Of a stretch of 64,000 nucleotides of DNA, positions 9,001 to 12,000 are shown piece by piece; positions within the stretch are counted from its first letter, which is position 1; each line of letters starts with the position of its first letter. The stretch is taken from assembly GCF_030013595.1 (NCBI RefSeq), contig NZ_CP122768.1; one strand, 5' to 3'. The DNA is from Escherichia coli (GTDB taxonomy: Bacteria; Pseudomonadota; Gammaproteobacteria; Enterobacterales; Enterobacteriaceae). A program made the position numbers.

Positions 9001-12000
9001 ATTGAAAAGAAAGAGTTGCGTACAGAGGATGATTTATTATCCCAAATCGCAATGCTGGAAAAAGAAAACGCAGAGTTAAGGGCAAGGATAGAGCAGTTAG
9101 AGCAAGAGCGCCCGATACACTTATATAAATACTGGGATAAAGACCCATTAGCTAAGGCTATTGAGATTAGAAACAGAGAGTGGGCCAATTACGATCCAGA
9201 AAATGATTTTGCCACCAGGGGAAATCAAGAAGCGATAACCAGGGAGCTTAAGCAGTGGGGGGCAAGTAATGCACTTGCAACGCTCATAGAGAGGACTGCC
9301 TGCCCTATTAACCGAGACAACAGCCAAAAGAACGCAAAGCCGGATTAACGCACCATACCGCATACCCTGAGGGTGATTTACTGTTACCCTGAGGGTATTT
9401 TTTTATCTTCCCCGTCAATTTTACCATCACCCTTAGGGTAGATTTCCTCCCGATTACCATCACCCTTAGGGTTAATTTCCTTCCGGTAACCATTAGGCCT
9501 GAGGGTATGAAAATATTCGTTATTTCTGTGCCAGGATTACCTCGTCAAATTGAGTAGACGTTATGAGGTAAATATATGTCAAATACGCTTATTCGTTTAA
9601 CAGAAGTTCAGCGTAGAACTGGATATAGCAAGGCATGGATTTATCGCCTTATGGGGCAAGGTAAATTTCCTGCATCAGTTAAAATTGGCTCGCGAGCTAT
9701 TGCTTTCGTTGAGAGTGAAATTGACGAGTGGATTAATCAGCGTATTGCGGAATCACGCGGAACAGCTACCTGATTAAATGGCTACGGGGCTATTGCCCCC
9801 AGCTATCCACCAGCAAATAAAAGTAACTTAATTCGATAGCAGGAGTTTTTATGAAATTTCCAAAAACGCCCGTACAGGGGCGGGGCTTCGTTCGGCCTGA
9901 AAACCAGAATCTGCAAAATTTCGGCGAAATTATCCCGGTTATTTCCGGCGTTATTGGCGGGAGTGAAACCACTATTGTTAGCGCCAGAGCGTTACATAAG
10001 GCGTTAGGTGTAGGGCGCGTTTTCCGTTCGTGGATCAAGGGGCGCATTGAAGAATACGGGTTCACGGAAGGCGTGGATTATGAGGTTGTTGAATATTTGA
10101 GCCGACCCGATCCGGTGAGCGCAAAATCTCGCCAGCAAACCGCTCTTGAGTACATCATCACAGTGAACATGGCGAAAGAACTGGCGATGGTCGAGCGCAC
10201 CGAACAGGGCCGCGCCGTTCGTCAGTACTTCATCAAATGCGAGGAGGAGCTACACAAGGTTGCGCCTGTTCGTTCCGCAGCGTTACGCCGGGAACTGAAA
10301 GCCCGTATCACCGTTGCCAGTTACTTTAAGCCGATGTGCGCCGCGCTGGAGGCGTACCGGGCTGAACTGGGTAAAAACACGTTCCAGCACCACTACACCA
10401 CGGAAGCCAATATGCTGGCGCGTATCGTGCTGGGTGGCATGACTGCAAAACAGTGGGCGCAGGCGAACGGCATCACAGGCGAACCACGCGACCACATGAG
10501 CACGTTGCAGCTTGAGCACCTTTCTTACCTTGAGCAGAGCAATATCACGCTGATTGAGTTAGGCCAGGACTACCACCAGCGGAAAGCTGAATTAATTCGT
10601 CTTTCGCAGCGTTGGTTAGCCCGTCGCATGGAGGAAAACAGCCATGTGTAACGCTCTGACCGTTACAAAAAGAGAAAGCGCCCCGTTGCCGGAGCGCCTT
10701 TGTGAACGAATAGCCTACTGCGCCATATTGCTTACTGTCTACGAGGCAGATTATAGCGTTGTGGTCGCACAGAGTGAAGGCGCTGATCACCGTTACTACA
10801 GCACGCCAGAAATGCAGAATATTTTGCTGCAAAATGCCGTTGGTCACGCCGTCCGGAAAGCAAAAAATTTTGCTGGTGGCGCGACTGATGCGATTTTGTC
10901 AGGTCGCCAGGTGCTGATCAATCTGATGTCTGATTTCGTTCTGGATAAAACAAAGGCGACCGCAGAGAGCCGCCAGTGGAAAAGCTACATACTTGAACGC
11001 ATCACCAACAATGCCACATTTGCGGCTGGTGGGCAATGTGATCAGTCAGATTTGGTTCGTTCCAAGGTTTGCAACGAGAGCTTTTTCCTGTGCTCTTTAA
11101 GGAATTTCTCAAGAGCAAACGAACAAGGTGCGAATCTTTCTGATTCATGTTCATGCGCTATATTTTTGCGTCGTTTCTTACGAGTTGGTGATGGTGTTTT
11201 GGTTGATTCTGTGTCGCTCATGGTGCTGTCCTGTAAAGCAATGCGCCTGCGTTCCTCAAACTATGGCGCTGATAGTGGCTATTCCTGCTCTTTGACCTTG
11301 CGTCGCTGGAGTTCTTCACGCGCGACGGTGACGAGTTGCCCGATCTCCTCGGCTGCTTTGACTCCGATTTTTTCCACCTGCGCCAGTGCATCGAGCGAAG
11401 AAACCAGGGGATTTTCTCCTCTTCCTTCTGCCTGGCGCCGGGCGATCTCCCCGCGCATGGCGGTTACTATGAATCCGGCGTTGCTTTCGCCGTCCAGTTT
11501 TACGGATTCCATGCCTTCAATAACATCATGCGGGATCCGAGCTGTCAGTGATTGTGATTTTGCGTTTTTTGAACCTGTAGCCATCTGTAATCCTCTCAAT
11601 GAAAGTGTAAGACAATATACACATAAAAAGTCTTACATAAAAGCATTGACATGTAAGCCACCCACAAATAAAGTTACTTACACCTTGTTAATGCAAGGTG
11701 CAGAAACGACGAAACCCGGCAGTGCGCGAACACTAACCGGGCTTCTAACCACCAACGATAGAGAGCTTATCGAGGTAGCTATGTTAAATCATACCACACA
11801 CCCGCAAGGGCGGGACTCGCACAACCTGAATAAATACATCTGGCGTTTTATCGCCCTGAGTACGGCACAACCGCGCGTAATTCACATCGAGGCCACCAGC
11901 GAACAGGAAGCGCGTCAGCAATCTCCTGATGGCTGCGTGATGGTATTCGCTGCCCGTATTCGCCAGGAGGTGCACCATGCATAACCTGTCAATTTCTGAC

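What the first reader, a model, noticed from the sequence alone, without database searches (positions are those of the whole stretch)
11600..11780. Divergent control region with GTAAGAC/GTCTTAC inverted repeat and repeated CTTAC half-sites
Between the minus-strand RHH gene and the plus-strand replication operon there is an inverted repeat (TGTAAGACAATATACACATAAAAAGTCTTACA) and further GTAAG/CTTAC half-sites overlapping a TTGACA-like hexamer. This is the architecture expected of an operator bound by an RHH repressor that controls the island's replication genes.
Basis: partly seen in the sequence, partly recalled or inferred. Interest (0 to 1): 0.4.

Follow-up and report, generated by a model that had tools for sequence, protein, structure and literature searches.

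The report
Satellite repressor operator plus antisense RNA
The stretch is the control region of a phage-satellite island: a small ribbon-helix-helix protein very probably binds four repeated sites over two back-to-back promoters to silence the island's replication genes, and the same region also encodes a previously undescribed SymR-like antisense RNA over the first gene's start.

Summary
TGTAAGAC-N16-GTCTTACA lies at 11606-11637, and there are four 9-bp TGTAAGNCA-type sites 22-23 bp apart in alternating orientation. They bracket a TTGACA-17-TAAAGT promoter for the replication operon and a conserved TATATT on the other strand for the regulator gene.

- The minus-strand gene (YlcI/YnfO family, 101 aa) models as a ribbon-helix-helix (RHH) dimer.
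- Across 22 distinct loci from about ten genera, the site sequence changes with the residues of the predicted DNA-reading strand. Layout and promoter hexamers stay fixed.
- The sites do not track AlpA, the Icd-like protein or the replicase type.

Positions 11702-11780 (minus strand) encode a roughly 76-nt cis-antisense RNA. It has a conserved -10 inside the Icd-like gene, two covarying hairpins and a terminator, and it matches SymR reciprocally but below Rfam's threshold.

The prototype Gram-negative PICI EcCICFT073 carries the same module. The 2018 paper describing it said a repressor was unclear.

Nothing is shown experimentally. I classify it as a new member of known kinds, of moderate interest.

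The parts
11279..11584 (-). YlcI/YnfO-family regulator gene (101 aa): N-terminal ribbon-helix-helix domain (aa 10-54) and a long C-terminal helix (aa 59-100)
11591..11596 (-). Shine-Dalgarno (GAGGAT) of the regulator gene
   Evidence: Read directly from the sequence. It lies 6 nt upstream of the ATG at 11584.
11606..11614 (+). Site s1, TGTAAGACA. It covers the predicted start of the regulator's own transcript.
   Evidence: Identical in class-A loci from E. coli, Enterobacter and Klebsiella.
11614..11619 (-). Predicted -10 (TATATT) of the regulator promoter, inside the O1 spacer
   Evidence: TATAnT is conserved at the same position in most operator classes and in CFT073, with variants in three. 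The -35 is weak, and the consensus scan did not call this promoter.
11629..11637 (-). Site s2 (TGTAAGACT on the minus strand)
11646..11651 (+). -35 hexamer TTGACA of the replication-operon promoter
   Evidence: Promoter scan: TTGACA-17-TAAAGT, 10 of 12 matches. TTGAC is conserved in nearly all loci.
11652..11660 (+). Site s3, TGTAAGCCA. It fills the first 9 bp of the promoter spacer.
11669..11674 (+). -10 hexamer TAAAGT of the replication-operon promoter
   Evidence: A TA-rich -10-like hexamer (mostly TAAnnT) is kept 17-18 bp after the -35 in every operator class.
11674..11682 (-). Site s4 (TGTAAGTAA on the minus strand). It covers the end of the -10 and the predicted +1 (about 11680-11682).
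11681..11700 (+). Small hairpin CACCTTG-N6-CAAGGTG at the predicted 5' end of the operon mRNA
   Evidence: I4. Present in classes A, B (Xenorhabdus) and CFT073 but not in all classes.
11702..11780 (-). Predicted SymR-like cis-antisense RNA (about 76 nt). Hairpin 1 spans 11746-11781, the linker UGGUUAGA follows, the terminator hairpin spans 11711-11745 and the U-rich tail spans 11699-11710. It is complementary to the SD and start region of the Icd-like gene.
   Evidence: Rfam SymR sub-threshold hit at 11708-11780 (-), 30.8 bits. The same hit recurs in 5 of 13 other loci searched. Model R1 scores 50.4 bits, E 1.4e-9 to 1.6e-9, at 11702-11780 (-). 28 pairs are 92.5% paired and 17 carry double changes. 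The minus strand folds 12 kcal/mol better than the plus strand in 23 of 23 loci.
11788..11796 (-). Predicted extended -10 promoter (TGgTATGAT) of the antisense RNA, inside codons 3-6 of the Icd-like gene
   Evidence: TAnnnT at a fixed distance from the start-codon complement in 18 of 19 distinct loci. The 19th was a script mis-anchor, and TACTAT is present there on inspection. The position matches the symR promoter layout.
11772..11775 (+). Shine-Dalgarno GAGG of the Icd-like gene
   Evidence: Read directly from the sequence. It is covered by the antisense RNA.
11781..11984 (+). Icd-like gene (67 aa), first gene of the replication operon
   Evidence: NCBIfam NF033153 scores 71.6 bits. RefSeq annotation of the identical sequence agrees.

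Best explanation
Window 11585-11800 is the two-layer control region of a PICI-type phage satellite (integrase, AlpA, AntA, then this module, then DUF4222 and primase).

**Layer 1, transcription.**
- Dimers of the 101-aa YlcI/YnfO-family ribbon-helix-helix protein, encoded leftwards, bind four pseudo-palindromic 9-bp sites of the TGTAAGNCA type. The sites are 22-23 bp apart (about two helical turns) in alternating orientation.
- s3 and s4 bracket the spacer, the -10 and the +1 of the rightward promoter TTGACA-17-TAAAGT. That promoter drives Icd-like, DUF4222 and primase.
- s1 and s2 bracket the -10 and +1 of the regulator's own leftward promoter.
- Full occupancy therefore shuts off the replication operon and autoregulates the repressor. 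The long C-terminal helix probably joins dimers into higher oligomers.
- Specificity lies in the beta-strand (residues 12 and 14, with invariant Arg16). It exists in at least nine interchangeable classes, which would define immunity groups among co-resident satellites.

**Layer 2, translation.**
- A constitutive-looking promoter inside the first codons of the Icd-like gene drives a leftward antisense RNA of about 76 nt. It has two hairpins and a terminator and belongs to the SymR family in the broad sense.
- This RNA is perfectly complementary to the leader, Shine-Dalgarno and start region of the Icd-like mRNA. It should block translation of any transcript that escapes the repressor and/or trigger its decay.

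**Shown here:** sequence, site array, promoter matches, fold prediction, protein/site covariation, RNA covariation and strand asymmetry.

**Inferred:** binding, repression, oligomer state, RNA expression and its effect.
For: **The site array is real and non-random**.

**Promoters.**
- TTGACA-17-TAAAGT matches 10 of 12 positions.
- The -35 TTGAC and a -10 TA-rich hexamer 17-18 bp downstream (mostly TAAnnT) are kept in every operator class.
- s3 always starts right after the -35 and s4 right after the -10.
- TATAnT is conserved in the O1 spacer on the other strand in most classes.

**RHH fold.**
- The AF2 model of a single-chain dimer gives E10-18, H19-28 and H35-54 twice, with pLDDT of about 88-95 in the folded blocks and pTM 0.70.
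- Foldseek puts TraY chains on top with probability about 1.

**Covariation of protein and sites.**
- Across 22 distinct loci, each beta-strand class has its own site:

| Class | Beta-strand | Site |
|---|---|---|
| A | SQSLTARIP | TGTAAGAC |
| B | SQLTTVRVP | TGTGTTTC |
| C | SQMTTIRVP | TGTATATC |
| D | SKQISIRIP | TGTGATTC |
| E | SQQLNARFP | TGGTATTC |
| F/G | KN classes | GTGTGTA |

- Short forms use GTGTTnAACAC or GTGGGCCACAC.
- Within a class, sites s1, s3 and s4 are 91-96% identical across genera, whereas the O2 spacer is 60% identical. Between classes, sites are 36-58% identical. The permutation test gave 0 of 10000.
- The T13F change (B versus B') leaves the site unchanged, as expected for a core-facing position.

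**Dissociation from other candidate binders.**
- The window (class A) and L004 (class B) have 93% identical Icd-like proteins but different sites.
- L007 (C) and L019 (D) have first-gene products 99% identical but different sites.
- Same-class pairs have Icd-like proteins only 25-43% identical.
- L003 (A) and L004 (B) carry the identical AlpA, WP_000953271.1.
- Class A occurs with a D5_N primase, a RepA helicase and an AAA_25 replicase.

**Antisense RNA.**
- The SymR model hits the same place and strand in 6 diverged loci at 25-39 bits, full length.
- A model built from 7 satellite sequences finds exactly one copy per locus in 25 loci, always antisense.
- With filters off, that model hits K-12 SymR at its annotated 5' end (29.2 bits, E 2.9e-6; next best 7.7 bits).
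- Of 28 pairs, 92.5% of cells are paired and 17 pairs carry double changes. No shuffle of 500 reached this, and slid controls were 35-44% paired.
- Many pairs are G-U, which would be A-C mismatches on the plus strand.
- Mean minimum free energy is -34.4 kcal/mol on the minus strand against -22.3 on the plus strand, with minus better in 23 of 23 loci.
- The -10 TAnnnT sits at a fixed distance.
Against: - No experiment supports any step. No binding, no transcription start and no RNA has been observed.
- The regulator has no Pfam hit and no sequence relative in the PDB. The unconstrained AF2 monomer put a low-confidence helix where the strand should be.
- The operator lies only 20-100 bp from the codons for the beta-strand. 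Part of the protein/site association could therefore be plain linkage of one recombining cassette. The argument rests on differential conservation of sites against spacer, and on changes being concentrated in sites and strand.
- The regulator's own promoter has a weak -35 and was not called by the scan.
- Some classes (A', F) have degenerate or unclear sites, and class C has one site in a different orientation.
- The SymR match is below Rfam's gathering score (30.8 against 61 bits). The terminator's U-tail is interrupted (UUUCGUCGUUUCU).
- The covariation alignment was fitted to the model.
- In the prototype PICI, the published activator AlpA suffices to induce replication (PMC6092414). The repressor therefore cannot be the only switch.
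Confidence: 0.72

Rival explanations
1. The repeats are bound by a different island protein. Candidates are AlpA, the Icd-like protein (PHROGs labels its family 'transcriptional repressor'), or the replicase, in which case the repeats would be iterons of an origin.
For: - PHROG 6196/1743 annotation of the Icd-like family.
- PICI origins are iteron-rich (PMC6092414).
- AlpA is a DNA-binding regulator of these islands (PMC6092414).
Against: - The site sequence is uncoupled from all three candidates. Identical AlpA occurs with different sites. Icd-like or first-gene products 93-99% identical occur with different sites, and 25-43% identical ones with the same sites. The same sites occur with three unrelated replicase types.
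- The sites sit exactly on promoter elements.
Confidence: 0.05
2. The RHH protein binds the sites but is not a master repressor of replication. It might be only an autoregulator or antitoxin of a small two-gene module with the 58-aa ORF downstream (11042-11221), a Cro-like or transient modulator, or an activator of one of the two promoters as Mnt is for Pmnt.
For: - A conserved small ORF follows the gene in many islands, including CFT073.
- RHH antitoxins autoregulate in this way (established knowledge).
- AlpA over-expression alone induces EcCICFT073 replication (PMC6092414).
- No plus-strand terminator separates alpA-antA from the operon, so the operon may mainly be driven by read-through.
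Against: - Two of the four sites bracket the -10 and +1 of the strong rightward promoter in every class. That position represses.
- The 58-aa ORF is missing from several loci that keep the full operator, and it matches only a PHROG of unknown function and no Pfam or NCBIfam family.
Confidence: 0.15
3. The conserved hairpins at 11700-11780 act in the sense mRNA leader, as a protein-binding or stability element or an attenuator, and no antisense RNA is made.
For: - The leader is necessarily transcribed from P_rep.
- Hairpin 1 holds or abuts the Shine-Dalgarno, which could by itself limit translation.
- No expression data are available.
Against: - Pairs are maintained through G-U, which is possible on the minus strand only.
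- The minus strand folds 12 kcal/mol better in 23 of 23 loci.
- An A-rich tract 5' of hairpin 2 on the plus strand equals a U-tail on the minus strand.
- A conserved TAnnnT lies at a fixed distance upstream on the minus strand.
- There is reciprocal similarity to SymR, a proven antisense RNA.
Confidence: 0.12
4. The repeats are a chance feature of an AT-rich promoter region.
For: A single perfect 8-bp inverted repeat appears in 4.5% of shuffles.
Against: - The four-site array together with the inverted repeat appeared in 1 of 2000 shuffles.
- The sites are conserved across genera while the spacers drift.
Confidence: 0.01

Closest known systems
Phage P22 immI region: Mnt and Arc ribbon-helix-helix repressors, divergent Pant/Pmnt promoters, and the sar antisense RNA (from my own knowledge of the literature)
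   Same: - Small RHH proteins bind repeated sites over overlapping divergent promoters.
- Mnt has an N-terminal RHH domain plus a C-terminal helical oligomerisation domain, like the 101-aa protein here.
- A short cis-antisense RNA covers the ribosome-binding site of the gene downstream of the repressed promoter.
   Different: - There is no detectable sequence similarity.
- The operator here has four sites 22-23 bp apart, not one 21-bp operator.
- The controlled genes are a satellite's Icd-like gene and replication operon, not an antirepressor.
- The antisense RNA here resembles SymR, not sar.
SymR/SymE of E. coli K-12 (Rfam RF01809; Kawano et al. 2007, PMC1891008)
   Same: - A 77-nt cis-antisense RNA with its promoter embedded in the first codons of the target ORF.
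- Its 5' end is complementary to the start codon and Shine-Dalgarno.
- It has two hairpins separated by a UGrUUAG linker.
- Reciprocal covariance-model matches, both full length, and an alignment.
   Different: - Scores are below Rfam's gathering threshold (25-39 against 61 bits).
- The target is an Icd-like gene heading a replication operon, not the AbrB-fold SymE.
- The upstream promoter is controlled by RHH sites, not LexA boxes.
- The element is a mobile satellite.
Stl/Rpr master repressors of Gram-positive PICIs (SaPIs) (PMC6092414)
   Same: - A regulator transcribed divergently from the excision/replication operon.
- It occupies the same position in the island map, between the integrase side and the primase.
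- It is expected to keep the island silent until a helper phage acts.
   Different: - Stl/Rpr are helix-turn-helix proteins and this one is RHH, so they are not homologous.
- No helper-phage anti-repressor partner is known here.
- Gram-negative PICIs also need the activator AlpA.
Plasmid RHH repressors CopG (pMV158) and omega (pSM19035) (from my own knowledge)
   Same: RHH dimers bind cooperatively to arrays of short repeats in direct or inverted orientation that overlap the -35/-10 of replication or copy-control promoters. CopG works together with an antisense RNA (RNAII).
   Different: - Omega heptads are contiguous, whereas the sites here are two helical turns apart.
- The protein families differ.
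- The element here is an integrated satellite, not a plasmid.
P1 immI (c4 RNA, icd, ant) and P4 CI RNA immunity (from my own knowledge; C4/isrK hits in some Gram-negative PICIs are reported in PMC10111431)
   Same: A small RNA controls translation of an icd-type first gene, and with it the downstream operon.
   Different: - C4/CI are processed from the sense transcript and act on repeated target sites. Here the RNA is a true cis-antisense transcript.
- Rfam C4 and isrK do not match this window even at E up to 10.

Membership tests
Ribbon-helix-helix (MetJ/Arc/CopG) DNA-binding superfamily | Strand-helix-helix fold forming an intertwined dimer with a two-stranded antiparallel sheet | tested here: met
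Ribbon-helix-helix (MetJ/Arc/CopG) DNA-binding superfamily | Sequence-profile match to a curated RHH family | tested here: not met
   No Pfam family at E up to 0.01. No PDB relative by phmmer or by profile. Only some UniRef names of homologues say 'Arc-like' or 'CopG family'.
Ribbon-helix-helix (MetJ/Arc/CopG) DNA-binding superfamily | Beta-strand side chains read the bases of short repeated sites | tested here: inconclusive
   The site sequence covaries with residues 12 and 14 of the predicted strand, and Arg16 is invariant. Linkage of the strand codons and the sites cannot be fully excluded. No binding assay is possible with these tools.
YlcI/YnfO family (NCBIfam NF041551) | Score above the curated cut-off of the family model | tested here: met
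   71.1 bits against a cut-off of 30, over residues 9-50. RefSeq names the identical protein accordingly.
SymR antisense RNA (Rfam RF01809) | Score at or above Rfam's gathering threshold (61 bits) | tested here: not met
   30.8 bits in the window and 25-39 bits in five other loci.
SymR antisense RNA (Rfam RF01809) | Cis-antisense layout: promoter inside the target ORF, 5' end over the start codon and SD, two hairpins, about 77 nt | tested here: met
   Conserved -10 inside the Icd-like ORF. Structure and covariation. The reciprocal model hit starts at SymR's annotated 5' end. The layout is predicted; expression was not tested.
SymR antisense RNA (Rfam RF01809) | Target gene is symE (AbrB-fold toxin) under LexA control | tested here: not met
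   The target is an Icd-like protein (NF033153). The upstream promoter carries RHH-type sites, not LexA boxes.
Phage-inducible chromosomal island (Gram-negative PICI) | tRNA- or gene-adjacent tyrosine integrase, AlpA, primase/replicase module and morphogenesis genes in one direction, about 10-15 kb | tested here: met
   - tRNA at 6970-7040 and int-alpA RNA.
- Integrase, AlpA, AntA, DUF4222 and D5_N primase.
- ProQ, PerC and DUF2213.
- Same module order as the prototype EcCICFT073.

Helper-phage induction is not testable here.

The most novel reading that the evidence does not exclude
The YlcI/YnfO-family RHH protein is the missing master repressor and immunity determinant of Gram-negative PICIs, including the prototype EcCICFT073, where it went unmentioned. 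It exists in at least nine swappable specificity classes that let several satellites coexist in one cell. It also works as a dual lock with a SymR-family antisense RNA on an Icd-like gene and the replication operon. Induction would occur when AlpA-modified, termination-resistant RNA polymerase from the upstream alpA operon reads convergently through the repressor gene into the replication operon. symER of E. coli K-12 would then be a domesticated remnant of this satellite cassette.
Probability: 0.3. Interest if true: 0.7.

Novelty: new member of a known kind. Interest (0 to 1): 0.55.

Why it matters
**An open gap in the field.** Gram-negative PICIs are widespread vehicles of horizontal transfer. 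[quoted passage not shown]

**How common the module is.**
- It is present in the prototype island EcCICFT073 under later-series RefSeq locus tags.
- Some form of it occurs in 1424 of 5426 complete E. coli genomes.
- It occurs across Enterobacterales.

**What it offers if the inference holds.**
- A concrete repressor, operator and antisense RNA to test.
- A natural set of orthogonal RHH/operator pairs that differ mainly in the 4-6 residues of the recognition strand. Such a set is useful for working out an RHH recognition code and for synthetic circuits.
- A first function for the uncharacterised YlcI/YnfO family.
- An evolutionary context for the isolated symE/SymR locus.

Tried and rejected
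- **Rfam at gathering threshold.** It found nothing in the region. C4, isrK and other phage immunity RNAs do not match even at E up to 10, so P1/P4-type sense-strand immunity RNA was rejected.
- **Sequence searches for the regulator.** Pfam, phmmer and profile searches of the PDB gave nothing.
- **AF2 monomer.** It mispredicted the strand as a low-confidence helix. I replaced it with a single-chain-dimer alignment.
- **tblastn against phage genomes.** No match.
- **Literature.** Searches for YlcI/YnfO, Icd-like, DUF4222, and for EcCICFT073 regulators and cf-PICI repressors found no description of this module.
- **Genome-collection scan.** It returned only 11 loci, so I added loci by exact-protein look-ups.
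- **RNAalifold on the MAFFT alignment.** It missed hairpin 1 because loop lengths shift the register. This was solved with per-sequence folding and a covariance-model alignment.
- **Model R1 with default filters.** It missed SymR. With filters off it found SymR.
- **cf-PICI label.** I first took the island for a capsid-forming PICI. The gene content up to about 19 kb fits an ordinary PICI better.
- **Other binders.** Iterons, AlpA sites and Icd-like sites were considered and rejected on the dissociation data.
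Full report
**Context**

The window is Escherichia coli chromosome; an 801-bp query across the region is 100% identical to strain cq9. Positions from about 6970 to about 19000 are a PICI-type phage satellite. The gene order is:
- a tRNA and a P4-type integrase;
- the int-alpA RNA motif;
- AlpA and AntA;
- two minus-strand genes;
- a plus-strand operon of Icd-like, a hypothetical gene, DUF4222 and a D5_N primase;
- ProQ/FinO, PerC and DUF2213 genes.

The finding lies in the 196-bp gap between the minus-strand gene (11279-11584) and the operon (from 11781).

**Checking the observation**

The quoted inverted repeat is exact: TGTAAGAC at 11606-11613 and GTCTTACA at 11630-11637, 16 bp apart. 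It is one half of a larger pattern.
- TGTAAG occurs four times in 77 bp in the order +,-,+,-. The whole window holds 28 copies.
- The unit is duplicated with a 45-46 bp period.
- Read as 9-mers, the sites are s1 TGTAAGACA (11606-11614), s2 TGTAAGACT (11629-11637, minus), s3 TGTAAGCCA (11652-11660) and s4 TGTAAGTAA (11674-11682, minus).
- Their centres are 22-23 bp apart.

In 2000 dinucleotide-preserving shuffles of the intergenic region, an inverted repeat of at least 8 bp arose in 89 and a 6-mer present four times arose in 10. Both together arose in 1. There is no second cluster anywhere in the window.

**Position relative to promoters**

The only consensus promoter found in 11000-12400 is TTGACA (11646-11651), 17 bp, TAAAGT (11669-11674) on the plus strand, matching 10 of 12 positions.
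- s3 starts at the base after the -35 hexamer.
- s4 shares its first base with the last base of the -10 hexamer and covers the expected +1.
- In the O1 spacer, the minus strand reads TATATT (11619-11614). s1 covers the expected start of that transcript and s2 lies over the -35 region. This leftward promoter has a weak -35 and was not called by the scan.

**The protein**

- It reaches the curated cut-off of NCBIfam YlcI_YnfO_N (71 bits against 30).
- It has no Pfam hit and no sequence relative among solved structures.
- An AF2 monomer model gave three confident helices and a low-confidence helix over residues 8-16.
- RHH strands form only in the dimer, so I built an alignment of 33 homologues as head-to-tail single-chain dimers of residues 1-57. 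That model has strand 10-18, helix 19-28 and helix 35-54 in both halves, with block-mean pLDDT of about 88-95 and pTM 0.70.
- Residues 59-100 form one long helix.
- A 59-aa short form, common in E. coli, equals the long form minus a 42-aa internal helical segment.

**Comparative test of 'this protein binds these sites'**

I collected 22 distinct versions of the locus. They came from E. coli genomes, one genome per species and exact-protein look-ups. The genera covered are Escherichia, Enterobacter, Klebsiella, Yersinia, Serratia, Erwinia, Xenorhabdus, Photorhabdus and others.

The C-terminal two-thirds of the protein is nearly constant. Residues 11-17, the predicted strand, fall into discrete classes.

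All loci keep the same layout: four sites at offsets of about 21, 47, 67 and 92 from the start codon, TTGAC as -35, a TA-rich hexamer (mostly TAAnnT) 17-18 bp later, and TATAnT in the O1 spacer of most classes. The site sequence, however, differs by class.

| Beta-strand | Site |
|---|---|
| SQSLTARIP | TGTAAGAC |
| SQLTTVRVP and SQLFTVRVP | TGTGTTTC |
| SQMTTIRVP | TGTATATC |
| SKQISIRIP | TGTGATTC |
| SQQLNARFP | TGGTATTC |
| ..KN.R.. classes | GTGTGTA-type, orientation +,+,-,- |

The short forms use palindromic 11-mers: GTGTTnAACAC three times in L032 and GTGGGCCACAC twice in CFT073.

Loci that share residues 12 and 14 have sites s1, s3 and s4 91-96% identical, even between E. coli and Xenorhabdus or Klebsiella. 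The O2 spacer between s3 and s4 is only 60% identical. Different classes have sites 36-58% identical. A permutation of class labels never reached the observed contrast (0 of 10000).

The strand codons lie only 20-100 bp from the sites, so linkage contributes to this association. The informative points are the differential conservation of sites against spacer, and the concentration of between-class change in the strand and the sites.

**Excluding other binders**

- *Icd-like.* The window (class A) and L004 (class B) have Icd-like proteins 93% identical but different sites. L007 (C) and L019 (D) have first-gene products 99% identical but different sites. Same-class pairs have Icd-like proteins only 25-43% identical.
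- *AlpA.* L003 (A) and L004 (B) carry the identical AlpA protein.
- *Replicase.* Class-A operators precede a D5_N primase, a RepA helicase or an AAA_25 protein. That rules out replicase iterons.

**The right-hand half of the interval**

From about 11700 to 11800 the sequence is conserved at about 90% in over a thousand E. coli genomes, including islands with a different regulator form.

*Similarity to SymR.*
- Rfam at relaxed threshold gave one notable hit: SymR on the minus strand at 11708-11780, 30.8 bits, full model length.
- The same hit, always antisense to the operon, recurred in five of thirteen diverged loci at 25-39 bits.

*Strand asymmetry.* Folding each of 23 distinct sequences on both strands gave a mean of -34.4 kcal/mol for the minus strand and -22.3 for the plus strand. 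The minus strand was more stable in 23 of 23 (Wilcoxon p = 2.7e-5).

*Covariance model.*
- A model built from seven sequences found exactly one copy per locus in 25 loci. These include the window (11702-11780, minus, 50.4 bits) and CFT073. Nothing else scored above 17 bits in 200 kb.
- On the resulting alignment, 28 pairs are 92.5% paired and 17 carry changes on both sides. No shuffle of 500 reached these values, and slid controls are 35-44% paired. Many pairs are G-U, which would be A-C on the plus strand. This alignment is fitted to the model, so the counts lean towards it.
- With filters off, the same model hits E. coli K-12 SymR from its annotated first base (L030 1836-1918; 29.2 bits, E 2.9e-6 for that 3.5-kb locus; next best 7.7 bits).

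*Promoter.* Upstream on the minus strand, inside the first codons of the Icd-like gene, a TAnnnT hexamer sits at a fixed distance from the start-codon complement in 18 of 19 distinct loci. The nineteenth was a script anchoring error, and TACTAT is present there by eye. Two geometries exist. In the window the promoter is TGgTATGAT (11796-11788).

*Predicted RNA.* It starts near 11780 and contains the anti-Shine-Dalgarno CCUC. Hairpin 1 spans 11746-11781, followed by an invariant linker UGGUUAGA. A GC-rich terminator hairpin spans 11711-11745 and is followed by UUUCGUCGUUUCU.

This is the layout of SymR, whose promoter is embedded in symE (PMC1891008). It does not meet Rfam's gathering score and its target is not symE, so I call it SymR-like rather than a SymR.

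**Mechanism proposed**

1. RHH dimers occupy s1-s4. Their long C-terminal helices probably join them.
2. This blocks RNA polymerase at both promoters: repression of the Icd-like/DUF4222/primase operon, and negative autoregulation.
3. Transcripts that escape are paired by the antisense RNA over the Shine-Dalgarno and start codon. That should prevent Icd-like translation and, through polarity or cleavage, expression of the genes downstream.

How a helper phage lifts this is unknown. No plus-strand terminator separates the alpA-antA operon from this region, whereas two minus-strand terminators end the regulator transcript. AlpA of Pseudomonas aeruginosa is a processive antiterminator (PMC7969949, PMC9371919). 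Convergent read-through is therefore a testable idea and nothing more.

**Relation to what is known**

- The closest functional analogue is the P22 immI region, with Mnt/Arc RHH repressors and the sar antisense RNA (my own knowledge). Plasmid CopG/omega systems are also similar. No homology to either is detectable.
- Positionally the gene corresponds to Stl/Rpr of Gram-positive PICIs, which are helix-turn-helix proteins.
- The paper that defined Gram-negative PICIs says a global repressor is unclear and shows AlpA to be an activator (PMC6092414).
- A later survey of Gram-negative PICI organisation mentions Bro-network proteins and C4/isrK immunity RNAs, but no RHH regulator or antisense RNA of this kind (PMC10111431).
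- In RefSeq, EcCICFT073 itself carries a 59-aa YlcI/YnfO gene and an Icd-like gene as a divergent pair under later-series locus tags (C_RS30120, C_RS30125). It has its own repeated sites and the same leader.
- I found no paper on YlcI/YnfO function. PHROGs lists the family as unknown.

**Verdict**

- The interval also holds a second, unremarked regulator, the SymR-like antisense RNA.
- Both are new members of well-known kinds of regulator. Their interest lies in filling a stated gap in PICI biology and in the natural series of orthogonal RHH/operator pairs.
- Every functional statement remains an inference until binding, reporter and transcript-mapping experiments are done.

Noticed in passing
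window 8467-8534 (+): The int-alpA RNA motif (Rfam RF02996) lies between the integrase and alpA. It scores 45.5 bits, above the gathering score of 35.8.
   Followed up: no
window 15575-16117 (+) and 16114-16401 (+): The island encodes a ProQ/FinO-domain protein (PF04352) and a PerC-family protein. By analogy with FinO/FinP, an island-borne ProQ/FinO protein could chaperone the two-hairpin antisense RNA. The CFT073 island lacks such a gene.
   Followed up: partly
window 11743-11750 (+ strand TCTAACCA; UGGUUAGA on the antisense RNA): The single-stranded linker between the two hairpins is almost invariant across genera. SymR has UGAUUAGC at the same place. Its function is unknown. It might be a chaperone or RNase site, or the point where pairing nucleates.
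   Followed up: partly
L034 6474-7053 (E. coli CFT073, NC_004431.1 1380473-1381052): The prototype Gram-negative PICI EcCICFT073 has the same divergent pair: a 59-aa YlcI/YnfO gene and an Icd-like gene. Both carry later-series RefSeq locus tags. The sites are GTGGGCCACAC twice, and the same leader and antisense module is present.
   Followed up: yes
L032 2223-2640; alignment A8: A short 59-aa form of the regulator equals the long form minus a 42-aa helical insert. It is paired with three perfect palindromic 11-mers, GTGTTnAACAC, instead of 9-bp sites two turns apart. This suggests that the insert changes how the dimers are arranged on the DNA.
   Followed up: partly
window 10644-11984 (+); L005 1869-2441; L031 2401-2808: A mechanical 446-aa ORF runs across the whole control region in the window. 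RefSeq also has over-extended 'Icd-like' CDSs that cross the intergenic operator in some genomes. These are probably annotation artefacts.
   Followed up: no
window 11042-11221 (-): A 58-aa basic ORF lies downstream of the regulator gene. It is conserved in many but not all islands (phrog_21027, unknown function). It could form an operon with the regulator.
   Followed up: partly
window 10955-10974 (-) and 10675-10700 (-): Two terminator-like hairpins on the minus strand lie downstream of the regulator operon. No plus-strand terminator was found between antA and the replication promoter. The alpA-antA operon and the regulator gene are therefore transcribed convergently.
   Followed up: partly
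leader types across loci: The leader and antisense module has two discrete geometries. In type I the Shine-Dalgarno follows hairpin 1 and the antisense -10 ends 4 nt from the start-codon complement. In type II the Shine-Dalgarno sits in the hairpin loop and the -10 ends 10 nt away. The two types go with different N-termini of the first gene.
   Followed up: partly
L014 1907-2049 (+); L011 2969-3081: A full isrN RNA (152.7 bits) lies in the locus whose record is titled Martelella alba. A long palindrome in the Erwinia psidii locus matches a microRNA model on both strands. Neither is related to the finding.
   Followed up: no
window 60970-61254 (+); 25617-27320 (+); 23234-24139 (-): Host features outside the island: the OmrA/OmrB sRNA pair, a type III secretion secretin gene, and an rve-domain (IS-type) transposase gene.
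   Followed up: no
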